Below, one piece after another: positions 34,643-55,844 of a stretch of DNA of 64,000 bases; position 1 is the stretch's first letter; the number at the start of each line of letters is the position of its first letter. The DNA is taken from assembly GCA_902610585.1 (NCBI GenBank), contig CACLWE010000001.1, forward strand, positions 110,970 to 174,969. Reading direction: 5' to 3'. The notes below the pieces were generated by a model that ran no database searches, had not been told where the DNA came from, and saw nothing but the letters and a program-made list of their open reading frames with translations. The translations under genes were made by a program, and so were the position numbers. The stretch comes from an uncultured Pelagibacteraceae bacterium (GTDB lineage Bacteria; Pseudomonadota; Alphaproteobacteria; Pelagibacterales; AG-422-B15).

Positions 34643-37368
<2,726 letters not shown>

Positions 37369-37460
37369 TTCTATGTACTAGAAACAAACTAGCAATTTCA
37401 AGCAACACTTAATTTAGATGAACAAAAAATTAAATTAGTATTGTATTCACGTTTTGTTGA

Positions 37461-41042: not shown

Positions 41043-41119
<77 letters not shown>

Positions 41120-43657: not shown

Positions 43658-44320
43658 ATGAATTCTGATATTTTTAATAACTATAATAAATTACTCCTAA
43701 GTTCTGATCTTGAAAGAATCAAAAAACTTATAGTCAGGTATAAAATTTTTGAAGAGACATTGAATGTCCCTGGGGACATAATAGAGTGTGGGGTATTTAA
43801 GGGTACAGGAATTATATATTGGTTAAAATTACTTAAGATCTTTTCTCCAAACTCAAGAAAAAAAGTTGTTGGTTTTGACTTGTTTGACGCATTTAATGAT
43901 GATCAAGCACAAGAATATGAAAAAAAGAGTATTCAAGAATTTGTTAAAGAAGCAAATTTTAGCGGTCAGGACATAGAAGAGCTTAATAAGATTGCGAATT
44001 CAATTTCTATGTCAGACAGATTTGAATTAGTAAAAGGTGACATAGTTTCTACTTCAAAAGACTATGTAAAAAATAACAGAGGATTTAAAATTTCTCTTCT
44101 GCATCTTGATCTAGATACATACAATGCAACAAAAAGTGCCCTCGAGAATTTTTTTCAATTTGTATCAAAAGGTGGCATTATATTAATAGATGAGTATGGA
44201 GAAAGAGGATGGGGCGAGAGTGAAGCTGTCGATGAATTTTTTAGAGATAAAGACATTCAAATTATAACAGTTCCTAATTCATCAAAACCCACCGCGTATA
44301 TTAAAAAAATTAATTTTTAA
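43658..44320 (+). CDS. TylF/MycF-like (macrocin-type) SAM-dependent sugar O-methyltransferase
   Basis: Contains GDIIECGVFKGTG, a HLDLDTY metal-site pattern and GGIILIDEY. Size is 220 aa. Confidence 0.75.
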   Translation: MNSDIFNNYNKLLLSSDLERIKKLIVRYKIFEETLNVPGDIIECGVFKGTGIIYWLKLLKIFSPNSRKKVVGFDLFDAFNDDQAQEYEKKSIQEFVKEANFSGQDIEELNKIANSISMSDRFELVKGDIVSTSKDYVKNNRGFKISLLHLDLDTYNATKSALENFFQFVSKGGIILIDEYGERGWGESEAVDEFFRDKDIQIITVPNSSKPTAYIKKINF

Positions 44321-44322
44321 GC

Positions 44323-45126
44323 ATGATAAATTTTGGAGTTATGCAGGGTAGATTGTCTAAAAAACAGAAACTGCAGGAATTTCCGTACGAAAATTGGCAA
44401 AAAGAATTAAAATTGTTATCTAATTTTGGATTTAATTGTATCGAATGGCTCATTGATAAAAGAGATGATGATAAAAATATATTTTTTGATAAAAATTTTA
44501 CTTTTTTTAAAAACGAGCAAGAAATAAAAAATATACTAATTAGAAGTGTATGTCTTCACTATTTTATTGATAATCCAATTAATTTTGATGATGCACCTAA
44601 AAACTATTCATTTACATTTTTAGAATCTATTCTATCCATATGTTGTATTAATAATATCAATAATATAATTTTTCCAATTTCTGATGAATTACTAAAATTT
44701 AAAGGTCAGCAATTAGTCTGCTTCTTTGAAAGAATTTCTCGTTTAAAATTCATCAAACCAAATATTAGAATTTTATTTGAGGTTGATAGTGAATTTGAAC
44801 TGTCAATTAATTTAATAGATAGGTTAAATAAAAATTTCGATATTTTTGGTCTATGTTACGATTTAGGTAATGCAAACTATCATGGACGCAGCATAATTTA
44901 CGACTTCAAATTACTAAATAAGTATATTTATGAAATTCATGTAAAAGATAAGGATAAACTCGGTAATAATGTTTATCTAGGCAAAGGCAACGTAAAATTT
45001 GAAGAATTTAAAACAGAATATCCAAAACTTGGAAAATTAAATAATATAATATTTGAGACAAACACTTATCTTGATCCTTTGGATACAATGAAAAAAAATG
45101 TTAAATTCATTAGAGCTTTTTTATGA
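44323..45126 (+). CDS. xylose-isomerase-like TIM-barrel protein (sugar phosphate isomerase/epimerase family)
   Basis: At 267 aa it shows the pattern GVMQGRL...FP...W..E......G...IEW, later EIHVKD and FET. The assignment is moderate. Confidence 0.5.
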   Translation: MINFGVMQGRLSKKQKLQEFPYENWQKELKLLSNFGFNCIEWLIDKRDDDKNIFFDKNFTFFKNEQEIKNILIRSVCLHYFIDNPINFDDAPKNYSFTFLESILSICCINNINNIIFPISDELLKFKGQQLVCFFERISRLKFIKPNIRILFEVDSEFELSINLIDRLNKNFDIFGLCYDLGNANYHGRSIIYDFKLLNKYIYEIHVKDKDKLGNNVYLGKGNVKFEEFKTEYPKLGKLNNIIFETNTYLDPLDTMKKNVKFIRAFL

Positions 45127-46121
45127 GATTCTTAATTATTGGATTGGGATCAGCAGGACAAAGACACTTAAAGAATATTTATAGTATTTATCCGGGAAGT
45201 CATTGTTATGCACTTAAAAGCACAAATATTAATAAATTAATAAACCATAAAAATCAGCTTTTAATAGATAAAAGAATAGAGCATGCTTACAAAATAAAAT
45301 TTCTTAAAACAATAAACGAAGCCAAAATTATAAAGCCAAATTTTGTTATCATATCATCTGTAACATCCAAGCATCTGGAACATGTAGAGTTTCTTTTAAA
45401 GCTCGATTGTAAAATACTAATTGAAAAACCTCTTTCAAGTAATTGGCGGCATATTGATAAGTTAAAAAAAATAAAAAATATTGATAATAAGGTATTTGTA
45501 GGTTTTCAATATAGATTCCATCCAATTTTAAACAAAATTAAGAACACAATTAAAAAAAAATCATTTGGAAATTTAGTTTCTGTACATTTTTATAATGGAG
45601 AGTATCTGCCATATATGCATAAATATGAAAATTATCAAAATGGTTATGCTGCAGTTAAAAAACTAGGCGGAGGGTCATTACTTACTCAGATTCACGAGAT
45701 TGACTTAGCGCTATACTTTTTTGGCAATCCTATAAAAATTTTCTCAGTGGGAGGGAAACTGTCTAATTTGAAAATTAATGTGGAAGATTCTGTTCACCTT
45801 TTAATGGAATTCAAAAGGTTCCAGAAAAAATTCCCCACTTCAATTATATTAAATTTTTTGTCACCATTAAAAAAAGAAATAGAAATACTAAGTGATAAAT
45901 ATAAAATTACATTTAATTTTAAAGATAAGTTTTATAATTGTTATAATTTGAAAACTTTAAGAGAAAATAAAATTAAATTTAATTTTACAAGGGATGATAT
46001 GTTTATTGCAGAACTAAAGGCCTTAGTAAGTGGAAAAAATTCAAATAAATTAGTTACTTTTAATGAATCTATAGAAGGCTTAAAAATCATTAAAAGGGTA
46101 AAAAAAAATATTAGCGTTTAA
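45123..46121 (+). CDS. Gfo/Idh/MocA-family NAD(P)-dependent oxidoreductase
   Basis: Has an N-terminal Rossmann motif FLIIGLGSAGQRH and the EKP motif (LIEKPLS). It has an ATGA overlap with the upstream gene. Confidence 0.75.
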   Translation: MRFLIIGLGSAGQRHLKNIYSIYPGSHCYALKSTNINKLINHKNQLLIDKRIEHAYKIKFLKTINEAKIIKPNFVIISSVTSKHLEHVEFLLKLDCKILIEKPLSSNWRHIDKLKKIKNIDNKVFVGFQYRFHPILNKIKNTIKKKSFGNLVSVHFYNGEYLPYMHKYENYQNGYAAVKKLGGGSLLTQIHEIDLALYFFGNPIKIFSVGGKLSNLKINVEDSVHLLMEFKRFQKKFPTSIILNFLSPLKKEIEILSDKYKITFNFKDKFYNCYNLKTLRENKIKFNFTRDDMFIAELKALVSGKNSNKLVTFNESIEGLKIIKRVKKNISV

Positions 46122-46124
46122 TCA

Positions 46125-46871
46125 ATGAAAAATATTAAAACTTTTTATGCTTTAATTCCGGCAAGAGGAGGATCAAAAGGTGTTCCTAGAAAAAATATTG
46201 TCAAAATCAATGGAAAACCTCTAATCTCATATACAATTGAGCAATCAATCAAGTCTAAACTAATTGACAAAACTTTTGTTTCAACAGATGATCCAGAAAT
46301 TGCATTGATATCAAAAAAATATGGTGCAATCGTTCCATTTAAAAGGCCAAAAAAAATATCAGGGGATTTTGCTACAGATCTTGATGTGTTCTTTAACTTT
46401 GCAAAGTTTTTAGAAAAAAATGGTGATTTGCCAGATTATTTTGTCCATTTAAGGGCAACAAATCCAATGAGAAAGTTAACCACAATTGATAAGGCCATTA
46501 AGATAATGAGACAAAATTATAGTTATGATACTCTCAGGTCTGTAAACATAGCCAGTCAATCCCCATATAAAATGTGGCTGATAAAAAATAACAATTTGGA
46601 ACAATTAATAAAATATAGAAATTCTGATAATTCTCATTCTATGCCAAGACAGTCATTACCAATCGTATATTGGCAAAATGGATATATTGATATTATTAAA
46701 TCGTCAGTGATTTTAAAAAAAAGCTCAATGACTGGTAGCAAAATATACCCATTAATAATTAGTGAAAAGATATATGAAGTTGATTATCCTGAGGACGTAA
46801 TAAAATTAGAAAAAGCTATGAAGAAAAAAAAATCCACAAGCTTGAAAAAAGGAATAAGGTATCCAGTGTGA
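46125..46871 (+). CDS. acylneuraminate-type cytidylyltransferase (CMP-ulosonic-acid synthetase, CTP_transf_3)
   Basis: Has the N-terminal signature ALIPARGGSKGVPRKN. Size is 248 aa. Confidence 0.82.
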   Translation: MKNIKTFYALIPARGGSKGVPRKNIVKINGKPLISYTIEQSIKSKLIDKTFVSTDDPEIALISKKYGAIVPFKRPKKISGDFATDLDVFFNFAKFLEKNGDLPDYFVHLRATNPMRKLTTIDKAIKIMRQNYSYDTLRSVNIASQSPYKMWLIKNNNLEQLIKYRNSDNSHSMPRQSLPIVYWQNGYIDIIKSSVILKKSSMTGSKIYPLIISEKIYEVDYPEDVIKLEKAMKKKKSTSLKKGIRYPV

Positions 46872-47683
46872 AAGGGGATAAACTGAGAAACTTCAACCTA
46901 GATGGTAAACTTATCATTTTAACAGGTGGCGCGGGTTACTTAGCTGAAGAATTTACTGAGGAAATACTTAAATTTAATGGAAGAGTTATATTAGTTGATA
47001 TTAATTTAAAACTATTAAAATTAAGAATTAAGAAATTTGAAAAAGAATATAGAAATAAAATATTTACATATAAATGTGATCTTACTTCTGAGTCGCAGGT
47101 AAAAAAAATGTTTGGGGATATTGAAAAAAAGATTGGTCTGCCTAACGTATTAATAAATAATGCCGCTTCAAATCCAACCATGATTAAATCTTCAAAAGGA
47201 AGCAATAATTTTGAGAATTTTTCAATTAACCAGTGGCAATTCGATATAGCATCTGGTCTTACCAGTGCTTTTTTATGTTCAAAATATTTCGGAAAGATAA
47301 ATACATCTCAAAATAGAGTAATACTCAATATTTCATCAGATTTAGGATTAATTGCTCCAAATCAAGGGCTTTACCAGGACAAAACAGGAAGTAACTTTAA
47401 ACCAGTAAGCTATTCAGTAGTAAAGCACGGGATTATTGGTCTTACAAAATATACAGCAACGTTTTGGAATGAAAAAAATATCAGGTGCAATGCAGTAGCG
47501 TTTGGGGGAGTTTTTAATAATCAAAACCTAAAATTTTTAAATAAAATTAAAAAACTGATTCCAATGAATAGAATGGCAAATAAATCTGAGTATAATTCGG
47601 CGATAGTATTTTTAATATCTGATGCTTCATCTTATATGAACGGATCTGTAACAGTAATTGATGGAGGAAGAACTGCTTGGTAA
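46868..47683 (+). CDS. short-chain dehydrogenase/reductase (SDR)
   Basis: Contains LTGGAGYLA (TGxxxGxG-like), NNAA and the catalytic YSVVK motif. It has a GTGA start/stop overlap. Confidence 0.8.
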   Translation: MKGDKLRNFNLDGKLIILTGGAGYLAEEFTEEILKFNGRVILVDINLKLLKLRIKKFEKEYRNKIFTYKCDLTSESQVKKMFGDIEKKIGLPNVLINNAASNPTMIKSSKGSNNFENFSINQWQFDIASGLTSAFLCSKYFGKINTSQNRVILNISSDLGLIAPNQGLYQDKTGSNFKPVSYSVVKHGIIGLTKYTATFWNEKNIRCNAVAFGGVFNNQNLKFLNKIKKLIPMNRMANKSEYNSAIVFLISDASSYMNGSVTVIDGGRTAW

Positions 47684-48531
47684 AAAAAAATTCAGAATGC
47701 TATTTATGTAAATCTAAAGATTTTAAAAAATTATTGAATTCTACTAGAGATTTAAAAGGCGTCTATCCAATTATTTGCAATAAGTGTAACCTCGTTACTC
47801 TGAATTCATTTACTCACATAAAAGAAAATCATTATGAAAATTCCGGTATTCATGGAAAAAATAAATTATCAATTTCTGATTGGATTAAACTTGCAAAAAA
47901 AGATGATGAAAGAAGATATAATTACTTAAATAAATTTATAAAAGGTAAAAAGGTACTCGATTTCGGATGCGGTGCAGGTGGTTTTTTAGCTATGTCTAAA
48001 AAGATTGCAAAATATGTAGCAGGGGTTGAACCAGAGATAAGAGTTCAAAAGTATTGGGATAGTAAAATAAATATACAACCAGAAATTGAAAAATTTAATC
48101 AAAAATTTGATTTAATTACTTGCTTCCATGTAATAGAACATGTGATGGAGCCAATAAATACAATAAAAATTTTAAAAAAATTTTTAAATAAAAATGGTAC
48201 ATTGATCATAGAAGTTCCGAATCATGAAGATGCACTATTGTCACTATACAACTCAAAGAGTTTTATTAACTCTTATTACTGGAGTCAGCACTTATATGTC
48301 TTTAATGAAAAAACACTTAAGCAGCTGATAAAAAAAACAGGTTTTAAAAATATTAATATCAAACAAATTCAAAGATACCCTTTATCAAATCATTTATACT
48401 GGCTCTCTAAAGGTCTACCAGCTGGTCAAGTACATTGGAGTTTTTTAAATGATACTGTAATTGAACAGAAATATTCACAGCAATTAGCTAGTCAAAGTAA
48501 ATGTGATACTATCCTTGCGCTTTGTAAATAA
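47677..48531 (+). CDS. class I SAM methyltransferase with an N-terminal CxxC...CxxC zinc ribbon
   Basis: Contains CYLC...CNKC, then VLDFGCGAGGF, FDLITCFHVIEHV and GTLIIEVPN motifs. It appears to use a TTG start, as there is no in-frame ATG nearby. Confidence 0.75.
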   Translation: MVKKNSECYLCKSKDFKKLLNSTRDLKGVYPIICNKCNLVTLNSFTHIKENHYENSGIHGKNKLSISDWIKLAKKDDERRYNYLNKFIKGKKVLDFGCGAGGFLAMSKKIAKYVAGVEPEIRVQKYWDSKINIQPEIEKFNQKFDLITCFHVIEHVMEPINTIKILKKFLNKNGTLIIEVPNHEDALLSLYNSKSFINSYYWSQHLYVFNEKTLKQLIKKTGFKNINIKQIQRYPLSNHLYWLSKGLPAGQVHWSFLNDTVIEQKYSQQLASQSKCDTILALCK

Positions 48532-48569
48532 ACCCTTTTTTTTAGATAAAATTAATATATTAGTTACTA

Positions 48570-49412
48570 ATGAAAAAAATATTTTTTATTGCTGAAATTG
48601 GAATTAACCATAATGGCGATTTGGATATTGCTAAAAAACTAATTGATGAGTCAGCTAAAGCAGGTTTTGACGCAGTTAAGTTTCAGAAAAGGACAATTGA
48701 TATAGTATATGATAAAGCTCTTTTAGATAGTCCAAGAGAAAGTCCTTGGGGAACAACTCAAAGAGATCAAAAAGAAGGTTTAGAGTTTTCGGAGAAAGAT
48801 TATCTCGAAATTGATAAGTACTGCAGGATGAAGAATATTGAATGGTTTGCTTCAGCATGGGATATCGAAAGTCTAGATTTTTTAGATCAGTTTAATCTTA
48901 AATTCAATAAAATTGCCTCAGCAATGATAGTTGATGAAGATTTTTTGACAGCAGTTGCGGAAAAAAAATTGCATACATTTATCTCAACTGGCATGTCCAC
49001 AATAAAAGATATTGAAAAAGCAGTTTCAATTTTCAGAAATGTGAACACTTCATTTGAGCTTATGCACTGTTTTTCCACCTATCCAATGAGGACTGAAGAT
49101 GCAAATTTATTAACCATAAAAGATATGAAAGAAAAATTTAATTGTGATGTTGGATATAGTGGACATGAAAATGGATTAGCAGTTTCATATGCCGCTTCAA
49201 TGCTTGGAATTTCCTCATTAGAAAGACATGTAACTCTTGATAGGACTATGTATGGATCAGATCAAGCAGCCTCCATTGAACCCAGAGGAATGCAAGAACT
49301 TATATCTGTAATTAATAAAATGTATATTGCTCTTGGAAAAATAAAGACGGGAGAAATATTGAAAGATGAAATTGCAATTGCAGAAAAATTAAGGGCTCAT
49401 ATTAAGAGATAG
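48570..49412 (+). CDS. NeuB-family sialic/ulosonic-acid synthase, catalytic barrel only (no C-terminal SAF domain)
   Basis: Contains FFIAEIGINHNGDLDIAKKLID.AK.AGFDAVKFQ, STGMS, GYSGHENG and LERHVT motifs. At 280 aa it is much shorter than the ~340-350 aa of canonical NeuB. Confidence 0.85.
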   Translation: MKKIFFIAEIGINHNGDLDIAKKLIDESAKAGFDAVKFQKRTIDIVYDKALLDSPRESPWGTTQRDQKEGLEFSEKDYLEIDKYCRMKNIEWFASAWDIESLDFLDQFNLKFNKIASAMIVDEDFLTAVAEKKLHTFISTGMSTIKDIEKAVSIFRNVNTSFELMHCFSTYPMRTEDANLLTIKDMKEKFNCDVGYSGHENGLAVSYAASMLGISSLERHVTLDRTMYGSDQAASIEPRGMQELISVINKMYIALGKIKTGEILKDEIAIAEKLRAHIKR

Positions 49413-49423
49413 AATCTATCCAG

Positions 49424-49753
49424 ATGAAAAAAATTTGCTTTGATTTAGATGGAGTAATTTGTAGTAACACATATGGTGAATACGATAAAGCCAAACCTAT
49501 TCCAAAAGCTATACAAAAAATTAATAGGCTATATGAAGAGGGAAATGAAATAATCATTTTTACAGCAAGATTCATGGGAAGGACAGGTGGCGATTTTAAA
49601 AAATCCTATGAATTTGGATTTGATCAGGCAAAATCTCAAATAGACTCTTGGGGATTAAAATATCATCAACTGAAATTGGGAAAACCTGAGTATGATATTA
49701 TTGTTGATGATAAAGGATTTGGATATAGTGAGAAATGGATTGATGAATTATGA
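49424..49753 (+). CDS. minimal capless HAD-superfamily phosphatase-like protein (109 aa)
   Basis: All four HAD motifs are present in order: FDLDGVI (I), IIIFTAR (II), KLGKP (III) and IIVDDKG (IV). Confidence 0.6.
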   Translation: MKKICFDLDGVICSNTYGEYDKAKPIPKAIQKINRLYEEGNEIIIFTARFMGRTGGDFKKSYEFGFDQAKSQIDSWGLKYHQLKLGKPEYDIIVDDKGFGYSEKWIDEL

Positions 49754-49783
49754 AACACTTATTTATAATTTTTGTATAATGTT

Positions 49784-50779
49784 ATGAAGATACTCGTTAC
49801 AGGAAGTGGTGGATTTATAGGTTTTCACTTATCTAAGTACCTTCTTGACAAAAATCATACGGTCTTTGGATATGATAATATGAACTCTTACTATGATGTA
49901 AAATTAAAAAGAGATAGAATTAAAATTTTATCAAAAAGCAAAAAAAAATTCATTTTTACTAAAGGTAATTTGGAAGATTTTAAAAAATTAGATAATGTAG
50001 TAAAAAAAAATAAAATAAAAATAATTGTTCATCTAGCTGCCCAAGCCGGTGTAAGGCATTCTGTCCAGAATCCGAGAGATTATTTTAATAGTAATATTAA
50101 AGGATTTTTCAATATATTAGAAACTTCTAAAATCAATAAAATTGAGCATCTTCTATTTGCATCTACTAGTTCAGTGTACGGTGATGGAAAAAATTTTCCA
50201 CTTAAAGAAACTGAAAATACCGATCATCCATTGTCTTTTTATGCTGCAACCAAAAAAAGTAATGAAGTAATGGCGTATGCTTATAGTCACATATACAATT
50301 TACCAGCTACAGGATTAAGATTCTTTACAGTATATGGCCCTTACGGTCGGCCTGATATGGCGTTATTTAAATTTATTAAAAATATGATGATGAAAAGACC
50401 TATTGAGTTATATAATAAAGGAAATCATATTCGAGATTTCACTTATGTGGATGATGTAGTTGTTTCAATATCGAAGCTTATAAATAAACCTCCAGTTAAG
50501 AAAGTGCCATATGATGTTTTTAATATAGCTGGTAATGAGCCTAGGCACCTAAAGGAATTTTTACGTATTATAGAGAAATATTTAAATATCAAACCAAAAG
50601 TTAAGCTTTTAAAGATGCAAATTGGAGACGTACATAAAACAGATGCTAATGTAAATAAACTTATTAATAAAATAAAATTCAAACCAAAAATAAAAGCTGA
50701 AGAAGGAATATCGAAGTTTATCGATTGGTATAAAAATCAATTCAATCAAGAAAGTAAAAAAAATGAAAATAGTTGTTGA
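49784..50779 (+). CDS. NAD-dependent nucleotide-sugar epimerase, UDP-glucuronate 4-epimerase-like
   Basis: Contains MKILVTGSGGFIGFHL, DN.NSYYDV.LK, YAATKKSNE (YxxxK) and RFFTVYGPYGRPDMA motifs. I prefer the ATG at 49784. Confidence 0.82.
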   Translation: MKILVTGSGGFIGFHLSKYLLDKNHTVFGYDNMNSYYDVKLKRDRIKILSKSKKKFIFTKGNLEDFKKLDNVVKKNKIKIIVHLAAQAGVRHSVQNPRDYFNSNIKGFFNILETSKINKIEHLLFASTSSVYGDGKNFPLKETENTDHPLSFYAATKKSNEVMAYAYSHIYNLPATGLRFFTVYGPYGRPDMALFKFIKNMMMKRPIELYNKGNHIRDFTYVDDVVVSISKLINKPPVKKVPYDVFNIAGNEPRHLKEFLRIIEKYLNIKPKVKLLKMQIGDVHKTDANVNKLINKIKFKPKIKAEEGISKFIDWYKNQFNQESKKNENSC

Positions 50780-51488
50780 TCTTTTTAACCAACATTCAGG
50801 AAATTTCTCAGAATTAAAGAGATTATCTAGTTTAGCATTTATTAATGGTGCTGATGTAGCAAAAATACAAATTTTAAACTCAGAGAGGATCTGGGGCGAT
50901 AAATCTAGAGAATATCTAGAACTTGATTATTACCAGGTAGAAGAAATATTTGATCATTGCAAAAAAGTTGGAATAGAGTTTTTAGCTACGGTCTTTACAG
51001 CTGAACATTTAGAATGGTTAGATAAACTTGGTATTGATAAATATAAAATTGCAAGTGTCACATCCAGCTTTAAAACTCAGAGTCCTGAAGATGATAAAGC
51101 ATTATGTAGAGAAATCATTGAAAGAAAAAAAGAAACCTATTTATCTCTTGGCTTTCAGAGTCCTAATGATTTTCCTTTTGGACTGAAAAGTCATATTAAG
51201 TATTTATTCTGTATTCCAAAATATCCTACCTTACTTGATGATGAAGACTTAATTAATTTTCCTGATAAATTTTCTTCTCAAGGATATTATGGTTACAGTG
51301 ATCACACATTGGGACTTGCAGCAGGCATTAAAGCATACATGAACGGATCCCAGATCATTGAAAAGCATTTTACATTTTCAAATTCATATCAAAAAACAAA
51401 TGAAAAAGGTCATTTATGCTCTTTTAATCCAGAAAGCTTAAGAGTATTTAGAAAAATCATCACTGAATTGTCTATTTTAAATCAATAA
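50763..51488 (+). CDS. second, divergent NeuB-family synthase-like protein, SAF-less (241 aa)
   Basis: Contains FNQHSGNFSELKRL...GADVAKIQ, GIEFLATVFT...YKIASVT, YGYSDHTLG and IEKHFT motifs. Both His-containing metal motifs are retained. Confidence 0.7.
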   Translation: MKIVVDLFNQHSGNFSELKRLSSLAFINGADVAKIQILNSERIWGDKSREYLELDYYQVEEIFDHCKKVGIEFLATVFTAEHLEWLDKLGIDKYKIASVTSSFKTQSPEDDKALCREIIERKKETYLSLGFQSPNDFPFGLKSHIKYLFCIPKYPTLLDDEDLINFPDKFSSQGYYGYSDHTLGLAAGIKAYMNGSQIIEKHFTFSNSYQKTNEKGHLCSFNPESLRVFRKIITELSILNQ

Positions 51489-51510
51489 ATATCTAATATC
51501 GAAGGGAATT

Positions 51511-52755
51511 ATGGAAATCTCAGTAATCGTCACAAGTTATAATTATGATCTTTACATAGAAACTTGTCTTCGAAGTTTAATAAATCAGTCATTTAATAAA
51601 GAAAAATATGAAATTATTGTTGTAGACGATTGTTCAACTGACAATACAAAAAAAATTTTAGATTATTTTAAAGACATTAAAAATTTAAGAATAATTAGAA
51701 ATAAAAAAAATTTAGGCGTAGCTGAGTCATCAAATATTGGAATAAGAGCTGCACTTGGTAAATATATTATCAGAGTTGATGCAGATGATTATGTAAATGA
51801 GGAATTTTTATATCAACTTCATTTATTTTATCGATACAACTCACAAGCTTTTGGAGTAGCCTGCGATTATATATATGTTAATAACAATGGGACTAAATTA
51901 AAACGCGTCTCTGCGAAAGAGGTACCAGTTTCATGTGGTATCATGTATTCAAAAGACAAACTTGTTAAGAATGGTCTTTATAAGAGATCTTGGCGTCATA
52001 GAGAAGAAGAAGAGCTAAGAAAAAGAATTGGAGAGGATTATAAGATCGAATATCTTTCGATGCCTTTATACAGATATAGAATGCATAAGAGTAATAAAAC
52101 TAAACAACTCAAAAATATGCGTTCATTCAAACAAAAATTAAGCAAAAGTCTAAGATTAAAAAAATCAGCTGGGCATACCGTAGTTGTTATTCCTGCAAGA
52201 AAAAATTCAAAAAGATTAAAAAATAAAAATAAAACATTATTGTGGGGTGAGCCATTAATTAGTTGGTCAATTAAAGCTGCAATGAATGCAGAGTATGTTG
52301 ATGCTGTATTTGTCTCAAGCGATTGCCACACCATTCTAGAAATTGCAAAAGAATTGGGGGCCTCAGTTATAAAACGACCTGCAAGCTTAAGTCTTAATAG
52401 TATTCCAAAACAAAAAGTTATAGAACATGCTATCAAATATATTGAAAAGAAAAAGAATTTAAAAGCTAAAGTAGTAGTGAGTTTACAGCCTAATTCACCT
52501 GAAGTCACATCTCAAGATATTAATAATTGTATAGAGATGTTAGTAAAAAATAGGAATAATGAAGTAATGTCTGTTGATGAGGACGGAAAACAAAATGCTG
52601 CAATCAGGGTTATGAAGTATGAAACTGTTTTTGATAGAAAGTTGAGTACATACTTTCAAGTATACACTAAAAATATTATTGATGTTCATACTTACCACGA
52701 TATTCAAATTCTTGAAAACAGAAACCAGATTTCTAAAGATGTTGAAGAAATATAG
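51511..52755 (+). CDS. fusion protein: N-terminal GT2 glycosyltransferase + C-terminal CMP-sugar cytidylyltransferase (CTP_transf_3) domain
   Basis: The N-terminal part has ISVIVTSYNYDLYIETCLRSLINQS, VVDDCSTDNT and RVDADD (DxD). From about residue 222 it reads VVVIPARKNSKRLKNKN, followed by a NeuA/KdsB-like core. The ORF is a continuous 414 aa. Confidence 0.8.
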   Translation: MEISVIVTSYNYDLYIETCLRSLINQSFNKEKYEIIVVDDCSTDNTKKILDYFKDIKNLRIIRNKKNLGVAESSNIGIRAALGKYIIRVDADDYVNEEFLYQLHLFYRYNSQAFGVACDYIYVNNNGTKLKRVSAKEVPVSCGIMYSKDKLVKNGLYKRSWRHREEEELRKRIGEDYKIEYLSMPLYRYRMHKSNKTKQLKNMRSFKQKLSKSLRLKKSAGHTVVVIPARKNSKRLKNKNKTLLWGEPLISWSIKAAMNAEYVDAVFVSSDCHTILEIAKELGASVIKRPASLSLNSIPKQKVIEHAIKYIEKKKNLKAKVVVSLQPNSPEVTSQDINNCIEMLVKNRNNEVMSVDEDGKQNAAIRVMKYETVFDRKLSTYFQVYTKNIIDVHTYHDIQILENRNQISKDVEEI

Positions 52756-52761
52756 TTTTAT

Positions 52762-54498
52762 ATGTGTGGCTTTTCAGTAATCTTAAATTCCAATAAAAAT
52801 AAGTCAGAACAATTAAAATTAATTAAAGAAATGAATCGTTCTATTCAGAATAGAGGACCAGATCATTCAGGAGTCTATAATGATGAGTATATCATCTTGG
52901 GTCATCAAAGGTTGTCAATTATTGATTTAAGCAGCGCCTCTAACCAACCAATGATTAATAATGAGTATGTGATTGTTTTCAATGGTGAAATTTATAATTT
53001 TAAAGATATAAGATCTGAATTGATTTCTGTTCACAATGAGAAGTTCGAGACTCATGGCGATACTGAGGTGCTACTTAAATCATATAAATATTGGGGTAAA
53101 GATTGTCTAAAAAAACTAAATGGTATTTTTTCATTTGCGATATGGAATCGAAAAAAGAAAGAACTATTTTGCGCCAGAGACAGATTTGGTGTTAAACCAA
53201 TTTATTATGCTTTTCAAAATGATGGAGAATTTATTTGTTCATCAGAAGTCAAAGGAATTTTTGCTTACGGTAAAAAAAAATCACCTAATTACAATACATT
53301 AAAGCATTATTTAATTCAGGGTGTTTATGGGTATAATGGACAAACTTTCTTTGAAGATATTTTTCAGTTACAAGCTGGGCATTATCTATACCTCAATAGT
53401 AATAATCAAATTACAGTGGAGAAATACTATCAGCTTGAGGATAGTATTAAAAACTCAACAAAATACAAAAGTGAAATGGAGGCATACGAGGAATATTCAA
53501 AATTAATTAATGATAGTATTCAATTACAACTTGTAAGTGATGTAAATTTAGGGGTAACACTTAGTAGTGGTTTAGACTCTTCTATATTATTTTCTCATGC
53601 ATTAGCAAACACAAATAAAAATGATCTTACAGCCTATACTTATACGTTTAATGATAGTAAATATGACGAGTCAATATATGTTAAGGACTGGGTTGCAGAA
53701 AATAAATGGAGAAAGATTTCTTGTGGTGGATCTGATTTTTTTGATGATATAAAAAAATTAATCATTAATCAATGTGAGCCAATAGGCGGCTTATCATTAC
53801 TTGGTGTTTCAGAGATATTTAAAACAGGACGTACACTTGATGATACAATTGTATATTTGTGCGGTGAAGGAATTGATGAGCAATGGTGCGGTTATGATTA
53901 CTATCAAGAGGCAAAAAAAACGAATTTACAGAATATTAGTATGATTCAGGGAACTAATAGTGCCATTAATAAAGGAATTCTTCATGAAGACTTTAAACAA
54001 TTTTATGAGAAAATAATATTTCCCACTCCATTTGAAACAAATATTGATAATCTAAAATTTAGAGACTTATTTCTCACAAAGGTACCTCGAAATTTAGGAT
54101 TTCTTGATAGAATTAGCATGCTCTATAGTGTTGAAGCAAGAGTTCCATTTTTAGATCATAGACTTGTTGAAGCTAGTTTTCGGTTACCTGAAAAATTTAT
54201 GTTAAAAAAAAATCAAGGTAAATATTTACTAAGAGATTGGTACAGTCAAAAACTTCCTAATTATGCAACTAGAAAAACTAAGCAATTTATTCAAAGTCCA
54301 CAAAGAGAATGGCTTGGAAATAGTGAGTATATCGAAGATATGATAAGTTCCAAAAGTTTCAAAGAGAGATCAATTTTTAATAATAAAGAGGTTAAAAAAT
54401 CCTTTAAAAGGTATAAAAATGGAGTCTTTGATAATTCCTTTTTTATATGGCAATGGCTTAATATAGAAATCTGGTTTCAAACAATTATTGAAAATTAA
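52762..54498 (+). CDS. asparagine synthetase B-type glutamine amidotransferase (sugar/carboxylate amidotransferase candidate)
   Basis: Has the N-terminal nucleophile in MCGF and a GHQRLSI.D motif. The PP-loop variant reads LSSGLDSS. Size is 578 aa. Confidence 0.85.
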   Translation: MCGFSVILNSNKNKSEQLKLIKEMNRSIQNRGPDHSGVYNDEYIILGHQRLSIIDLSSASNQPMINNEYVIVFNGEIYNFKDIRSELISVHNEKFETHGDTEVLLKSYKYWGKDCLKKLNGIFSFAIWNRKKKELFCARDRFGVKPIYYAFQNDGEFICSSEVKGIFAYGKKKSPNYNTLKHYLIQGVYGYNGQTFFEDIFQLQAGHYLYLNSNNQITVEKYYQLEDSIKNSTKYKSEMEAYEEYSKLINDSIQLQLVSDVNLGVTLSSGLDSSILFSHALANTNKNDLTAYTYTFNDSKYDESIYVKDWVAENKWRKISCGGSDFFDDIKKLIINQCEPIGGLSLLGVSEIFKTGRTLDDTIVYLCGEGIDEQWCGYDYYQEAKKTNLQNISMIQGTNSAINKGILHEDFKQFYEKIIFPTPFETNIDNLKFRDLFLTKVPRNLGFLDRISMLYSVEARVPFLDHRLVEASFRLPEKFMLKKNQGKYLLRDWYSQKLPNYATRKTKQFIQSPQREWLGNSEYIEDMISSKSFKERSIFNNKEVKKSFKRYKNGVFDNSFFIWQWLNIEIWFQTIIEN

Positions 54499-54512
54499 TT
54501 ACAAATCCAAGT

Positions 54513-54680: not shown

Positions 54681-54686
54681 AAATAC

Positions 54687-55733
54687 ATGGAATCAAAAAA
54701 TAAATTGAAAATGAGAAAGAATCTTTTTTCTAAAGAAAAATTATTTTTTAATAAATTAAAAAAAATAATTAAGTCTCAACCCTATTTTGTGATTATTGTA
54801 CTTCACGAATATTTTCGTAACATTTACCCATCAGATCCCCACATAAAATTTAAGAACCAAGATGCATATTCAAGAATTAATAATAAACTTGATGAACTTT
54901 TAGAAGCAATCAAGATTTTTTCTTCGTTTGGTGTCTATTCACTTAATTTTGATTTTAAAAAAAATAGGCAGGAAATTAAGAAAAAAACAGGCGCACTTTA
55001 TGGTGATCTTTGGGAGATTTTGACAAAAGAAGAAAACTTAAGAGCTAAAGACTTTATAATAAAAAGATTTAAAAAAAATATAAATGTAAAAAATTATTTT
55101 AAAAACAAAATTGTTCTCGATGTAGGCTGTGGAGATGGTCGTTATTCTCACGCGATATGTCAGCTAGGAGCAAAAAAAGTGTATGGAATTGACTATGGCA
55201 CCAAGGGACTTTCTATTGGAAGAAAAATTTTTAAAACAAAAAAATTAACTCTTAAACAAGCAGATGCACTGAAGATCCCTTTCAAAGATAATACTTTTGA
55301 TTTTGTATGGAATAGTGGCGTTGCACATCATACAACTAATTTTGAAAAAGCAATAAAAGAATTGGTAAGAGTATGTAAAGATAAAGGGCAAATATATTTT
55401 TATGTTTATGGGAAAGGTGGAATTTTATGGTCATCAAGAAGAAAAATGAACGAGCTTATAAAAAATAATATTCCCCAAGAATACTCACAACAGATACTAA
55501 ATATGATTGGCATGCCCTCAAACAGATGGATATTCATGGATAATTGGTATGTGCCTATAGAAAGGCATAATACTTACAGTGAGGTAATAAAAATATTTAA
55601 TAAATTGGGTGTAAGAAAAATTGAAAAAATAAAATCAGGTAGATCAATTGATTTACATATTGCTGCTACTGAGGATAAAAATGGAGAACTTATTTGGGGT
55701 AATGGTGAGATAAGATTATTAATTACTAAATAA
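54687..55733 (+). CDS. class I SAM-dependent methyltransferase with a ~130-aa N-terminal extension
   Basis: Contains VLDVGCGDGRYS, FDFVWNSGVAHH and DKGQIYFYVYG motifs. Size is 348 aa. Confidence 0.8.
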   Translation: MESKNKLKMRKNLFSKEKLFFNKLKKIIKSQPYFVIIVLHEYFRNIYPSDPHIKFKNQDAYSRINNKLDELLEAIKIFSSFGVYSLNFDFKKNRQEIKKKTGALYGDLWEILTKEENLRAKDFIIKRFKKNINVKNYFKNKIVLDVGCGDGRYSHAICQLGAKKVYGIDYGTKGLSIGRKIFKTKKLTLKQADALKIPFKDNTFDFVWNSGVAHHTTNFEKAIKELVRVCKDKGQIYFYVYGKGGILWSSRRKMNELIKNNIPQEYSQQILNMIGMPSNRWIFMDNWYVPIERHNTYSEVIKIFNKLGVRKIEKIKSGRSIDLHIAATEDKNGELIWGNGEIRLLITK

Positions 55734-55844
55734 AAAGAATATTAAAAGTTAGAACAAATGAAGCAATTATCGTCAAAATTTAAATATATTTAATTTTTAT
55801 TTATGGTTTTAAAAAATCTTTTAAAATTATGCAAGTTGCTCTAA

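What the first reader, a model, noticed from the sequence alone, without database searches (positions are those of the whole stretch)
43658..54498. Twelve-gene operon with two NeuB-type synthases and two CMP-transferase domains, but none of the canonical upstream sialic-acid enzymes
Twelve + strand genes are packed with 0-20 nt gaps or overlapping start/stop codons:
- a TylF-like O-methyltransferase
- a TIM-barrel isomerase
- a Gfo/Idh/MocA oxidoreductase
- a CMP-transferase
- an SDR
- a zinc-ribbon methyltransferase
- NeuB-like 1
- a 109-aa HAD protein
- a UDP-GlcA-epimerase-like gene
- NeuB-like 2
- a GT2::CMP-transferase fusion
- an AsnB-type amidotransferase

Known nonulosonic-acid routes (Neu5Ac, pseudaminic acid, legionaminic acid) need other enzymes. 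These are a 4,6-dehydratase (PseB/LegB), a DegT-type aminotransferase (PseC/LegC), an N-acetyltransferase, and a hydrolysing 2-epimerase or UDP-sugar hydrolase (NeuC/LegG/PseG). I see no homologue of any of them in this window.

The duplicated synthase-plus-activator pairs, together with redox, methylation and amidation enzymes, suggest one or two non-canonical ulosonic acids. These could be non-aminated, methylated or amidated, KDN-like or Kdo-like. This is the strongest candidate for an undescribed pathway in the window.
Basis: partly seen in the sequence, partly recalled or inferred. Interest (0 to 1): 0.75.

Follow-up and report, generated by a model that had tools for sequence, protein, structure and literature searches.

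The report
Two unusual acidic-sugar modules in SAR11
A cell-surface sugar island of a SAR11 ocean bacterium carries two separate gene modules for sialic-acid-like sugars: one most likely works like the known Kdn route that starts from a sugar phosphate, and the other is an uncharacterised type that also turns up in marine virus contigs.

Summary
The 12 co-directional genes are real and their domain assignments hold. No PseB/C, LegB/C, acetyltransferase or NeuC/LegG/PseG homologue lies in the window. None lies in the 5 kb beyond it either; that stretch encodes a dTDP-sugar route.

It is not one 12-step pathway. It is a mosaic inside a Pelagibacterales glycan island beside the rRNA operon.

- **Module A (43658-49753).** A SAF-less NeuB groups (88/100) with the characterised Man-6-P-specific Kdn-9-P synthetase and a HAD::NeuB fusion, and shares clade-specific motifs with them. 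A 109-aa HAD phosphatase follows it. A NeuA/LegF-like cytidylyltransferase, PtmF/PtmA-like oxidoreductases, a TIM-barrel enzyme and methyltransferases accompany it. The likely product is a CMP-activated, non-aminated, methylated Kdn-like acid made through a phosphorylated intermediate.
- **g09** is a UDP-GlcA 4-epimerase-like gene.
- **Module C (50763-52755).** A compact, deep-branching NeuB ("NeuB2") with intact metal and PEP residues sits beside GT2::cytidylyltransferase. This trio recurs in at least 72 IMG/VR viral contigs. Its product is unknown.
- **AsnB plus a methyltransferase** is a 3-kb insertion, absent from a 96%-identical contig.

Verdict: a new variant of a known kind, of moderate interest. 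NeuB2 is the novel part.

The parts
39231..40403 (+). UDP-glucose 6-dehydrogenase. It supplies UDP-GlcA and is the likely partner of the epimerase at 49772.
   Evidence: NCBIfam PRK15057 479.5 bits and TIGR03026 319.9 bits. UGD lies within 6 kb of NeuB2 in 39 of 72 viral loci.
42552..43247 (+). Class I SAM methyltransferase (231 aa), possibly part of module A.
   Evidence: Methyltransferase hits. A homologue is fused to the mini-HAD in P0279 (E 1.6e-65). It co-occurs with NeuB-short in 17 of 79 IMG/VR loci.
43658..44320 (+). TylF-like O-methyltransferase (module A tailoring).
   Evidence: PF05711 53.6 bits.
44323..45126 (+). Xylose-isomerase-like TIM-barrel enzyme, a sugar or sugar-phosphate isomerase/epimerase.
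   Evidence: PF01261 44.6 bits. Weak hits to L-ribulose-5-P 3-epimerase. Present in 20 of 42 NeuB-short loci with at least 6 genes.
45123..46121 (+). Gfo/Idh/MocA oxidoreductase, in the PtmF-like position next to the cytidylyltransferase.
   Evidence: PF01408 and PF22725. IolG HMM 69.6 bits, below cut-off. PtmA-LegF-PtmF are consecutive ORFs in a legionaminic acid cluster (PMC4481668).
46125..46871 (+). CMP-ulosonate synthetase, NeuA/LegF/PseF-like.
   Evidence: PF02348 84.4 bits. PseF HMM 128.5 bits, below the 205.7 cut-off. Best PDB hit is V. cholerae NeuA 6IFD at 99.9 bits, against KdsB at about 30 bits. 28% identity to P. parvum CMP-Kdn synthetase, E 2e-19.
46868..47683 (+). PtmA-like short-chain dehydrogenase.
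   Evidence: PRK09186 167.5 bits and FlagModPtmA 111.9 bits, both below cut-off. An SDR is present in 27 of 42 NeuB-short loci.
47677..48531 (+). Methyltransferase with an N-terminal CxxC...CxxC zinc ribbon.
   Evidence: PF13489 92.7 bits. Cysteine pattern read from the sequence.
48570..49412 (+). NeuB-short: a SAF-less NeuB-family synthase, Kdn-9-P-synthase-like.
   Evidence: PF03102 232.7 bits and no SAF domain. Below the NeuB and PseI equivalog cut-offs. Catalytic, metal and PEP residues are kept. 33% identity to PpKdn9PS, E 2e-40. Clade with PpKdn9PS and the HAD::NeuB fusion at 88/100, with shared motifs.
49424..49753 (+). 109-aa capless HAD phosphatase, proposed ulosonate-phosphate phosphatase.
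   Evidence: TIGR01689 36.4 bits and HAD-IIIA 29.6 bits. Motifs D7xD9, T47, K87 and D95D96 read from the sequence. Family fusions to NeuB (P0325) and CTP_transf_3 (P0375).
49772..50779 (+). UDP-glucuronate 4-epimerase-like extended SDR. Its stop overlaps the NeuB2 start by 17 nt.
   Evidence: Best PDB hit is 5U4Q at 314 bits, followed by B. cereus UDP-GlcA 4-epimerase 6ZL6 and WbgU. A homologue lies near NeuB2 in 41 of 72 viral loci.
50763..51488 (+). NeuB2: a compact, deep-branching NeuB-family TIM barrel. A putative PEP-dependent synthase of unknown substrate.
   Evidence: PF03102 97.6 bits. Across 48 homologues K34, Q36, K95, S128, S179, D180, H181, E200 and H202 are invariant. AF2 model pLDDT 96.5 with 8 strands. 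Top fold matches are NeuB, PseI and 6NCS. Forms its own clade at 100/100.
51511..52755 (+). Fusion protein. GT2 glycosyltransferase (about residues 1-205, 51511-52125) joined to a short CTP_transf_3 cytidylyltransferase (about residues 221-414, 52171-52755).
   Evidence: PF00535 108.6 bits plus PF02348 76.5 bits. Best PDB hits are 6P61 (180.5 bits) and 6IFD (83.3 bits). The two domains are separate genes flanking NeuB2 in most other loci.
52762..54498 (+). Glutamine-hydrolysing AsnB-type amidotransferase, inside a 3,038-bp insertion (52692-55729).
   Evidence: TIGR01536 370.7 bits, above the 267.1 cut-off. Absent from L001. Its 90% cluster has a single member.
54687..55733 (+). 348-aa methyltransferase, the second gene of the insertion.
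   Evidence: PF08241 81.1 bits. Absent from L001.
55735..55793 (+). Degenerate relic of the former 3' end of the GT2::cytidylyltransferase gene, left behind by the insertion.
   Evidence: Aligns to the last roughly 60 nt of the L001 gene, with one indel.
55845..57131 (+). 428-aa protein with no family assignment. Homologues sit between the cytidylyltransferase and NeuB2 in L007 and L008.
   Evidence: No Pfam, NCBIfam or PDB hit. phmmer co-occurrence. Only 4 homologues found. The AF2 model is unusable, pLDDT 41.6.
57152..57817 (+). 221-aa protein with no family assignment. Homologues lie in NeuB2-bearing viral loci.
   Evidence: No Pfam hit. phmmer hits near NeuB2 in 11 of 72 viral loci.
57857..59011 (-). 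384-aa protein with no family assignment. Homologues follow the GT2 gene in L003-L005.
   Evidence: No Pfam or PDB hit. Co-occurrence.

Best explanation
The region is part of the hypervariable cell-surface glycan island of a Pelagibacterales (SAR11) genome, directly downstream of the rRNA operon. The 12 genes are a mosaic of cassettes. Together they supply activated sugars for an O-antigen- or capsule-like glycan.

**Module A (43658-49753).** It makes a CMP-activated, non-aminated, probably O-methylated Kdn-like 3-deoxy-ulosonic acid by the sugar-phosphate route.
1. NeuB-short condenses PEP with a hexose-6-phosphate. Man-6-P or an epimer is the most likely substrate.
2. The 109-aa HAD removes the phosphate.
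3. The NeuA/LegF-like cytidylyltransferase adds CMP.
4. The TIM-barrel enzyme, the Gfo/Idh/MocA enzyme and the PtmA-like SDR remodel either the sugar-phosphate precursor or the product.
5. The methyltransferases decorate it.

Because the substrate is a central-metabolism sugar phosphate, no NDP-sugar dehydratase, aminotransferase, acetyltransferase or hydrolysing epimerase is needed.

**g09.** Together with the upstream UGD, it makes UDP-GalA.

**Module C (50763-52755).** NeuB2 is a second PEP-dependent synthase with its own cytidylyltransferase, which is fused to a GT2. It makes and uses a second ulosonic acid of unknown structure.

**AsnB plus methyltransferase.** This is a later insertion. 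It probably amidates a carboxyl group, most likely of the uronic acid.

**Shown:** gene content, domain identities, phylogenetic placement, conserved catalytic residues, co-occurrence and fusions.
**Inferred:** substrates, order of steps and products.
For: **Context**
- rRNA operon at 32745-37575.
- The IspG 90% cluster contains a protein that its source names as from a Pelagibacterales MAG.
- Core proteins sit in 90% clusters of 113-706 members. Island proteins sit in clusters of 1-9.
- HVR2 of HTCC1062 is a cell-surface island at the rRNA genes (PMC2217521).

**Module A: the synthase**
- NeuB-short keeps E25, K53, Q55, K129, S132, S154, Y186, S213, H215, E234, H236 and D247 (NmNeuB numbering), but has no SAF domain.
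- It is 33% identical to the Man-6-P-specific, SAF-less P. parvum Kdn-9-P synthetase, E 2e-40.
- The NJ tree gives (NeuB-short family + PpKdn9PS + HAD::NeuB fusion P0325) 88/100.
- The clade shares the motifs KFQKR, SxWD, SGH, AAS(I/L)EPxG and a non-acidic residue at position 134.

**Module A: phosphatase link**
- The HAD gene starts 11 nt after NeuB-short.
- The HAD family is fused to NeuB (P0325) and to CTP_transf_3 (P0375).
- A HAD is present in 31 of 79 NeuB-short IMG/VR loci.
- A Leptospira NeuB::phosphatase fusion has been described (PMC3438082).

**Module A: conserved neighbourhood**
- Among the 42 metagenome loci with at least 6 genes: CTP_transf_3 in 38, SDR in 27, SIS_2 in 24, AP_endonuc_2 in 20 and Gfo in 9.
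- g04 is NeuA-like rather than KdsB-like.

**Module C**
- NeuB2 metal and PEP residues are invariant across 48 homologues.
- It models as a full TIM barrel at pLDDT 96.5 and matches NeuB folds.
- CTP_transf_3 lies near it in 62 of 72 viral loci, and GT2 in 51 of 72.

**Mosaic structure**
- The L001 comparison and the relic of the old gene end show the insertion.

**No canonical enzymes**
-.
Against: - NeuB-short is only 31-33% identical to PpKdn9PS. That is no closer overall than to 6NCS (34%). The clade rests on a neighbour-joining tree of 228 columns and on motifs, so the substrate could differ from Man-6-P.
- The mini-HAD is unrelated to the characterised Kdn-9-P phosphatase BT1713.
- The mini-HAD family is also fused to SIS_2, GT9 heptosyltransferase and class II aldolase domains. 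It could therefore serve heptose metabolism.
- In the closest metagenome relatives of NeuB-short, the usual neighbour is a GmhA-like SIS_2 isomerase and a HAD is rare. The window lacks SIS_2.
- g04 scores no better against CMP-Kdn synthetase (76 bits) than against NeuA (100 bits).
- No biochemical data exist for any of the window's proteins.
- The rest of the 191-kb source contig could not be read, so canonical genes further away cannot be excluded.
- Nothing shows that the genes are co-transcribed. The promoter and terminator scan was uninformative.
Confidence: 0.55

Rival explanations
1. The cluster makes a canonical nonulosonic acid (legionaminic, pseudaminic or N-acetylneuraminic acid). 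The missing dehydratase, aminotransferase, acetyltransferase and hydrolysing epimerase would be encoded elsewhere in the island or genome.
For: - The Gfo-cytidylyltransferase-SDR trio matches the consecutive PtmF, LegF and PtmA ORFs of a legionaminic acid cluster.
- The SDR hits the PtmA HMM.
- The cytidylyltransferases score best against PseF and NeuA.
- The island continues past the window, where a DegT gene and a 4,6-dehydratase lie 0.5-2.7 kb beyond its end.
- Some related loci pair NeuB-short with DegT (7 of 42).
Against: - The dehydratase beyond the window passes the RmlB (dTDP-glucose) equivalog cut-off (399.4 > 365.1).
- The DegT gene is RfbH-like (264 bits). It scores far below the PseC cut-off (153.8 vs 423.5) and the LegC cut-off (132.9 vs 420).
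- Both sit with RmlC- and reductase-like genes.
- NeuB-short lacks the SAF domain, whose Arg314 binds the N-acetyl group.
- NeuB-short groups with the Kdn-9-P synthetase.
- Both NeuBs fall below the NeuB and PseI equivalog cut-offs.
- No acetyltransferase or Epimerase_2 gene occurs in 69 kb.
Confidence: 0.1
2. The mini-HAD belongs to heptose metabolism in a GmhB-like role, alongside the HldD epimerase at 38262. NeuB-short would then use an unphosphorylated sugar, or a heptose phosphate, giving an 8- or 10-carbon acid rather than a Kdn-like 9-carbon acid.
For: - The HAD family is fused to SIS_2 (P0254) and to a GT9 heptosyltransferase (P0294).
- The HAD gives a weak HAD-IIIA hit.
- A GmhA-like SIS_2 gene is the commonest gene immediately downstream of NeuB-short (21 of 66).
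- ADP-glyceromanno-heptose 6-epimerase is present in the window.
- CMP-activated C10 ulosonic acids of unknown genetic basis have been reported (SugarBase preprint).
Against: - The window has no SIS_2 gene, heptose kinase or nucleotidyltransferase in this cassette.
- The HAD sits 11 nt after NeuB-short.
- HAD::NeuB and HAD::CTP_transf_3 fusions exist.
- The HAD-fused NeuB is 49% identical to the Man-6-P-specific Kdn-9-P synthetase, with 100/100 support.
- The cytidylyltransferase is NeuA-like, not KdsB-like.
Confidence: 0.15
3. NeuB2 is not an independent ulosonic acid synthase. It could be a degenerate paralogue, or an enzyme that modifies or extends the product of the neighbouring classical synthase. 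The GT2::cytidylyltransferase would then serve the same sugar as module A.
For: - NeuB2 is short (241 aa) and gives a weak Pfam score (97.6 bits).
- It lacks the E25, E134 and D247 equivalents in their usual form.
- In the window, L003-L006 and L092 it sits beside another NeuB-family gene.
Against: - Metal-binding His and PEP-binding Lys, Ser and Gln residues are invariant across 48 homologues with 45% mean identity.
- It models as a complete 8-stranded barrel at pLDDT 96.5.
- PpKdn9PS is active without an acidic residue at position 134 (and PMC6200933).
- In L007/L008 and many viral loci, NeuB2 plus a cytidylyltransferase occurs without any other NeuB gene.
Confidence: 0.1

Closest known systems
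[quoted passage not shown]
   Same: - The logic is the same: PEP plus a hexose-6-phosphate gives an ulosonate-9-phosphate, then a phosphatase, then a CTP-dependent cytidylyltransferase. No NDP-sugar steps are needed.
- PpKdn9PS is likewise SAF-less.
- PpKdn9PS shares with NeuB-short the motifs KFQKR, SxWD, SGH and AAS(I/L)EPxG, and a clade at 88/100.
   Different: - Identity is only about 33% for the synthase and about 28% for the cytidylyltransferase.
- The phosphatase is a different, 109-aa HAD subfamily with no similarity to BT1713.
- The window adds Gfo/Idh/MocA, SDR, TIM-barrel and two or three methyltransferase genes that the Kdn pathway lacks.
- The substrate is untested.
Leptospira interrogans NeuB::phosphatase fusion, and the SAF-less L. 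borgpetersenii NeuB (PDB 6NCS)
   Same: - A SAF-less or phosphatase-linked NeuB was proposed to use a phosphorylated substrate in an 'animal-like' route (PMC3438082).
- 6NCS is the best solved-structure match of NeuB-short, at 153 bits.
- The GT2 domain of g11 best matches PDB 6P61, at 180.5 bits.
   Different: - In the window the synthase and phosphatase are separate genes.
- 6NCS is 34% identical and does not share the KFQKR and SGH motifs. It falls outside the Kdn-9-P synthetase and NeuB-short clade; S+6NCS is recovered in only 2 of 100 replicates.
- The Leptospira cluster also carries a complete legionaminic acid pathway.
Legionaminic acid clusters with the PtmF-LegF-PtmA trio (Campylobacter, Vibrio fischeri, Plesiomonas shigelloides; PMC4481668)
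   Same: - A Gfo/Idh/MocA oxidoreductase, a CMP-sugar synthetase and a PtmA-type SDR lie adjacent to one another, near a NeuB-family synthase.
   Different: - No LegB, LegC, LegH, LegG or PtmE is present.
- The PtmA HMM score is 111.9 against a cut-off of 350.
- The synthase lacks the SAF domain.
SAR11 hypervariable region 2 (HVR2) of 'Candidatus Pelagibacter ubique' HTCC1062 (PMC2217521)
   Same: - It is a hypervariable island of cell-surface and LPS genes at the rRNA genes.
- Here the island genes are rare (90% clusters of 1-9 members) beside abundant core genes.
   Different: - In HTCC1062 the island lies between the 23S and 5S genes. Here 23S and 5S are adjacent and the island follows the 5S gene.
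- No ulosonic acid module was found reported for SAR11 in the text searches.
Bacillus subtilis sps operon (SpsA GT2, SpsE NeuB-type synthase, SpsF cytidylyltransferase). Recalled from memory; only SpsE (1VLI) was compared here.
   Same: - It combines a GT2, a NeuB-family synthase and a CTP_transf_3 enzyme in one locus.
- JGI annotates several NeuB2 homologues as 'sialic acid synthase SpsE'.
   Different: - SpsE has a SAF domain and is about 25% identical to NeuB2.
- As recalled, the sps route includes aminotransferase, acetyltransferase and PseG-like genes, which are absent here.

Membership tests
Classical nonulosonic acid synthases (NeuB/PseI/LegI) | NeuB TIM-barrel domain (PF03102) with metal-binding His pair and PEP-binding Lys/Ser residues | tested here: met
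   - NeuB-short scores 232.7 bits and NeuB2 97.6 bits.
- The H215/H236, K53, K129, S154 and S213 equivalents are present in both.
Classical nonulosonic acid synthases (NeuB/PseI/LegI) | C-terminal SAF / antifreeze-like domain contributing Arg314 to the sugar site | tested here: not met
   - Neither protein has a PF08666 hit.
- Lengths are 280 and 241 aa, against about 350 aa for the classical enzymes.
- The role of the domain is described in PMC8208679 and PMC11339185.
Classical nonulosonic acid synthases (NeuB/PseI/LegI) | Score above the NCBIfam equivalog cut-offs (TIGR03569 NeuB_NnaB 399.65; TIGR03586 PseI 340.25) | tested here: not met
   - NeuB-short scores 236.5 and 182.7.
- NeuB2 scores 83.7 and 69.4.
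Kdn-9-phosphate synthase type (SAF-less, sugar-6-phosphate-using NeuB relatives) | [quoted passage not shown] | tested here: met
   - For NeuB-short the clade is recovered at 88/100.
- It shares the motifs KFQKR, SxWD, SGH and AAS(I/L)EPxG, at E 2e-40.
- NeuB2 does not meet this feature. It forms its own clade and has the SDH motif.
Kdn-9-phosphate synthase type (SAF-less, sugar-6-phosphate-using NeuB relatives) | Dedicated phosphatase and CMP-synthetase partners | tested here: met
   - The HAD lies 11 nt downstream, and CTP_transf_3 lies in the same cassette.
- HAD::NeuB and HAD::CTP_transf_3 fusions exist.
- The phosphatase is not orthologous to BT1713.
Kdn-9-phosphate synthase type (SAF-less, sugar-6-phosphate-using NeuB relatives) | Specific use of mannose 6-phosphate with PEP | not testable with these tools
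   This needs an enzyme assay. It was shown only for the P. parvum and B. thetaiotaomicron enzymes (PMC6200933).
Canonical Pse/Leg/Neu5Ac pathways | PseB/LegB 4,6-dehydratase and PseC/LegC aminotransferase | tested here: not met
   - None is present in the window.
- Beyond the window, the dehydratase is RmlB (399.4 > 365.1) and scores only 110.5 against a LegB cut-off of 475.
- The DegT gene scores 153.8 against the PseC cut-off of 423.5, and 132.9 against the LegC cut-off of 420.
Canonical Pse/Leg/Neu5Ac pathways | N-acetyltransferase (PseH/LegH) and a UDP-sugar hydrolase or hydrolysing 2-epimerase (PseG/LegG/NeuC) | tested here: not met
   No acetyltransferase, Epimerase_2 or Glyco_tran_28-type hit was found among the scanned ORFs of the window or in L091.
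CMP-nonulosonate synthetases (NeuA/LegF/PseF) | CTP_transf_3 fold with a score above the PseF equivalog cut-off (205.7) | tested here: inconclusive
   - PF02348 is met for both: 84.4 bits for g04 and 76.5 bits for the g11 C-terminal domain.
- PseF HMM scores are 128.5 and 87.1, both below cut-off.
- Both score higher against NeuA structures than against KdsB.
SAR11 HVR2-type glycan island | Hypervariable block of cell-surface genes at the rRNA genes of a Pelagibacterales genome | tested here: met
   - The rRNA operon lies at 32745-37575 and glycan genes run from 38262 to beyond 64000.
- Cluster sizes are 1-9 for island proteins against 113-706 for core proteins.
- There are indels relative to L001.
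- The 23S and 5S genes are not split here, unlike in HTCC1062.

The most novel reading that the evidence does not exclude
The NeuB2 / short cytidylyltransferase / GT2 trio may be a self-contained module for a structurally new CMP-activated ulosonic acid. It is often found with UGD, a UDP-GlcA epimerase, a mini-HAD, PIG-L deacetylase, formyltransferase or sulfotransferase genes. It would be exchanged between marine viruses and the SAR11 surface-glycan island. Viruses might use it to remodel the host surface or to glycosylate virions, since in some contigs it lies a few kb from the major head protein gene.

In parallel, relatives of NeuB-short that are paired with GmhA-like isomerases may build higher-carbon (C10) ulosonic acids from heptose phosphates. 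That would provide a genetic basis for the recently reported C10 CMP-sugars.
Probability: 0.3. Interest if true: 0.75.

Novelty: new variant of a known kind. Interest (0 to 1): 0.55.

Why it matters
SAR11 is described as the most abundant bacterial clade in the ocean. Its hypervariable surface-glycan island has been postulated to be shaped by viral predation (PMC2217521), yet the text searches here found no report of ulosonic acid genes in that island.

- **Surface chemistry.** If module A makes a methylated Kdn-like acid, a sialic-acid-family sugar would be a common surface component of marine bacterioplankton. That bears on phage recognition, grazing and the composition of dissolved organic carbon.
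- **Scale of the family.** NeuB-short has more than 8,000 close homologues. This would assign a likely function to a very large set of 'N-acetylneuraminate synthase' annotations that are probably wrong about the substrate.
- **NeuB2.** The module has no characterised counterpart, and its presence in many viral contigs suggests glycan-gene traffic between virus and host.
- **Testability.** All of this can be tested with a handful of recombinant enzymes and CMP-sugar mass spectrometry.

Tried and rejected
**Searches that led nowhere**
No species-level survey was possible.
- The look-up of encoding contigs could not retrieve the window's own 191-kb contig: AsnB is 'not on record'. The extension beyond 64000 therefore rests on L091, a contig 100% identical to the window's last 3.5 kb.
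- AF2 of the 428-aa orphan with a 4-sequence alignment gave pLDDT 41.6, and no fold search was attempted.
- PDB sequence searches found nothing for the 428-aa and 384-aa orphans or the TIM-barrel protein, and only weak matches for the Gfo enzyme.
- The promoter/terminator scan found fewer sites than shuffled sequence, so it was uninformative for operon structure.
- Literature searches for a described NeuB, xylose-isomerase-like and MocA cluster, or for SAR11 nonulosonic acids, found nothing specific.
- GenBank phage records hold only two or three distant matches.

**Ideas considered and rejected**
- A recent duplication of the synthase/activator pair. The paralogues are only 24% and 31% identical.
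- AsnB as an integral pathway step. It is absent from L001.
- The M119 replacement of Glu134 as evidence that NeuB-short is inactive. The active Kdn-9-P synthetase also lacks an acidic residue there.
- The downstream DegT and dehydratase genes as completing a Pse or Leg pathway.

Full report
**Observation**

The window is AT-rich (about 29% GC). It carries a complete rRNA operon at 32745-37575 (16S, tRNA-Ile, tRNA-Ala, 23S, 5S). From 38262 to the window end, almost every gene is a sugar-nucleotide, glycosyltransferase, methyltransferase or transporter gene.

Junctions range from a 17-nt overlap to a 38-nt gap.

Pfam or NCBIfam scans of 59 window ORFs of at least 100 aa, all but two overlapped ones, found no DegT aminotransferase, Epimerase_2 (NeuC/LegG), PseG-type hydrolase or sugar N-acetyltransferase.

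**Organism and setting**

The window's IspG sits in a 90%-identity cluster that contains a protein which its source names as from a Pelagibacterales MAG. Core proteins of the window belong to 90% clusters of 113-706 members. The island proteins belong to clusters of 1-9.

In 'Ca. Pelagibacter ubique' HTCC1062, the largest hypervariable region (HVR2, 48 kb) encodes cell-surface genes and lies at the rRNA genes (PMC2217521). This window is the same kind of island, except that here 23S and 5S are adjacent and the island follows the 5S gene.

**It is a mosaic, not one pathway**

Contig L001, from a single-cell assembly, is 96-99% identical to window 39423-62455 but lacks 52692-55729, which holds AsnB and the 348-aa methyltransferase. 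A degenerate copy of the original 3' end of the GT2::cytidylyltransferase gene survives at 55735-55793. AsnB therefore arrived as a two-gene insertion.

The two NeuB-like proteins are 24% identical. The two cytidylyltransferase domains are 31% identical. They are ancient paralogues belonging to different modules.

**Beyond the window**

L091 is 100% identical to window 60520-64000 and extends 5 kb further. It encodes:
- a GT4
- a dehydratase above the dTDP-glucose 4,6-dehydratase equivalog cut-off (399.4 vs 365.1)
- an RfbH-like DegT protein, which scores 153.8 against the PseC cut-off of 423.5 and 132.9 against the LegC cut-off of 420
- a reductase
- an RmlC-like epimerase
- another GT4

This is a dTDP-deoxyhexose route.

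**Module A (43658-49753)**

*The synthase.* NeuB-short (280 aa) has the NeuB barrel but no SAF domain. It scores below the NeuB and PseI equivalog cut-offs. Aligned to N. meningitidis NeuB, it keeps E25, K53, Q55, K129, S132, S154, Y186, S213, H215, E234, H236 and D247. It has more than 8,000 homologues, the best 120 at about 70% identity.

*Link to the Kdn pathway.* The decisive comparison used the sequence of the P. parvum Kdn-9-P synthetase, taken from the supplement of PMC6200933. That enzyme is 312 aa, also SAF-less, and was shown to use only Man-6-P.
- NeuB-short matches it at 33% identity over 280 residues, E 2e-40.
- In a neighbour-joining tree, the Kdn-9-P synthetase pairs 100/100 with P0325, a natural HAD::NeuB fusion (49% identity).
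- The NeuB-short family joins that pair at 88/100.
- NeuB, PseI, SpsE and 6NCS all fall outside.
- The three share KFQKR, SxWD, SGH (the others have SDH), AAS(I/L)EPxG and a non-acidic residue at the Glu134 position.

*The phosphatase.* The next gene, 11 nt downstream, is a 109-aa HAD with all four catalytic motifs. Its family (1,870 representatives) includes fusions to NeuB (P0325), to a g04-like cytidylyltransferase (P0375, E 2.5e-42) and to a homologue of the methyltransferase at 42552 (P0279). A NeuB::phosphatase fusion in Leptospira was earlier read as evidence for a phosphorylated-intermediate route (PMC3438082).

*The cytidylyltransferase.* g04 is NeuA-like (6IFD, 99.9 bits) rather than KdsB-like (about 30 bits).

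*Reading.* Together these point to PEP plus a hexose-6-phosphate giving an ulosonate-9-phosphate, then the free acid, then the CMP-acid. This explains why no NDP-sugar enzymes are needed.

*Accessory enzymes.* In 42 metagenome loci with at least 6 genes, the neighbours of NeuB-short are:

| Neighbour | Loci (of 42) |
|---|---|
| CTP_transf_3 | 38 |
| SDR | 27 |
| GmhA-like SIS_2 | 24 |
| AP_endonuc_2 | 20 |
| Methyltransferases | 13 |
| Gfo/Idh/MocA | 9 |
| Glyoxalase-like | 8 |
| DegT | 7 |
| Radical SAM | 6 |
| Class IV aminotransferase | 6 |

The core is synthase plus cytidylyltransferase. The rest is a variable tailoring set, which implies a family of related acids.

The window's Gfo-cytidylyltransferase-SDR trio mirrors the consecutive PtmF, LegF and PtmA ORFs of a legionaminic acid cluster. 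There, ptmA is assigned to the first, precursor-supply segment, and PtmF is listed with those precursor-supply components in the SugarBase preprint (PMC4481668). Whether these enzymes reshape the sugar phosphate or the finished acid cannot be told from sequence.

**g09**

Its PDB matches after the top one (5U4Q, 314 bits) are B. cereus UDP-glucuronate 4-epimerase and WbgU. A UDP-glucose dehydrogenase lies at 39231. The pair most simply gives UDP-GalA.

In viral loci, an epimerase and a UGD accompany NeuB2 far more often than they accompany NeuB-short (UGD 39 of 72 against 4 of 79). g09 may therefore belong functionally with module C.

**Module C (50763-52755)**

*NeuB2.*
- It is 241 aa and 24-26% identical to every other NeuB group.
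- It forms its own clade at 100/100, on the deepest branch.
- Across 48 homologues with 45% mean identity, K34, Q36, K95, S128, S179, D180, H181, E200 and H202 are invariant. These are the equivalents of the PEP- and metal-binding residues.
- AlphaFold gives a complete eight-stranded barrel at pLDDT 96.5.
- Its best structural matches are NeuB, PseI and 6NCS (TM 0.83).

It is therefore very probably an active PEP-dependent synthase with a different sugar pocket.

*Its partners.* It is almost always accompanied by a cytidylyltransferase of about 190 aa and a GT2 of about 210 aa. These are fused here and in L006, and separate elsewhere. The GT2 domain has the usual DD and DxD motifs, as read from the sequence. 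Orphan proteins g14, g15 and g16 co-occur with it. Their function could not be determined.

*Product.* It is unknown. Options include an acid made from a central sugar phosphate (a mini-HAD lies near NeuB2 in 17 of 72 viral loci) or from a UDP-uronic-acid-derived sugar.

**Viral connection (seen in passing)**

Alignment-based scans of IMG/VR found 446 NeuB2-like and 521 NeuB-short-like stretches. The flanks include a major head protein (phrog_267, E 4.9e-33), an exonuclease (phrog_69, E 6e-25) and a weak late sigma factor hit. They also include PIG-L deacetylase, formyltransferase, sulfotransferase, APS kinase and LicD genes. One viral contig carries NeuB2 (56%) and NeuB-short (47%) 2 kb apart, as in the window.

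**Comparison and verdict**

Module A works like the described CMP-Kdn pathway. By phylogeny and motifs it is a divergent member of that synthase clade. It differs in having a non-orthologous phosphatase and extra redox and methylation enzymes, and its substrate is untested.

Module C has no characterised counterpart.

SAF-less environmental NeuBs have been noted but not explained (PMC8208679).

The finding is a new variant of a known kind. Interest is moderate, and is raised by the abundance of SAR11, the size of the NeuB-short family and the virus-host sharing of NeuB2.

Noticed in passing
L092-L171 and L172-L251 (IMG/VR contigs), e.g. L122:3990-4940 and L098:14531-15244: NeuB2-like and NeuB-short-like genes occur in hundreds of IMG/VR viral contig stretches (446 and 521). 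They sit in syntenic glycan blocks. The flanks include a major head protein (phrog_267, E 4.9e-33), an exonuclease (phrog_69) and a weak late sigma factor hit. PIG-L, formyltransferase, sulfotransferase, APS kinase and LicD genes lie nearby.
   Followed up: partly
window 52692-55793: AsnB plus a 348-aa methyltransferase form a 3,038-bp insertion relative to the 96%-identical contig L001. A degenerate 59-nt relic of the old 3' end of the GT2::cytidylyltransferase gene remains at 55735-55793.
   Followed up: yes
window 41043-41119 (tRNA-Met); L001:1621-2532: L001 carries an extra stretch of about 790 bp with a Methyltransf_21 gene at this spot. The first 60 nt of the tRNA-Met gene are present on both sides of it, which looks like a cassette insertion at the tRNA.
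   Followed up: partly
L091:2981-8553 (equivalent to window 63500 to about 69070): Just past the window end lies a dTDP-deoxyhexose set: RmlB, an RfbH-like DegT protein, a reductase and an RmlC-like epimerase, flanked by two GT4 genes. The island therefore continues, and supplies at least one further unusual sugar.
   Followed up: yes
P0230-P0379 (homologues of window 49424-49753): The 109-aa HAD belongs to a family of about 1,870 representatives that is fused in different genomes to many partners: NeuB, CTP_transf_3, SIS_2, class II aldolase, GT9 heptosyltransferase, an ATP-grasp domain and a methyltransferase. It looks like a general 'plug-in' sugar-phosphate phosphatase of glycan loci.
   Followed up: partly
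window 41132-42490 (-), 55845-57131 (+), 57152-57817 (+), 57857-59011 (-), 12577-14307 (+): Five sizeable ORFs (452, 428, 221, 384 and 576 aa) have no Pfam match; the four in the island also have no NCBIfam match. All five lack predicted membrane helices apart from the untested 576-aa ORF. Three of them co-occur with NeuB2 modules elsewhere.
   Followed up: partly
window 1-32309 versus 38262-64000: There is a sharp contrast in population frequency. Core proteins such as SecA, PrfA, IspG, AccA and the methylmalonyl-CoA mutase sit in 90% clusters of 113-706 members. Island proteins sit in clusters of 1-9, and AsnB is a singleton.
   Followed up: yes
metagenome loci L012-L089: In the closest relatives of NeuB-short, a GmhA-like SIS_2 isomerase is the commonest immediate downstream neighbour (21 of 66) and a HAD is rare. 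In the viral-collection loci the reverse holds (HAD 31 of 79, SIS 5 of 79). The reason is unknown. It may reflect different sugar-phosphate substrates.
   Followed up: no
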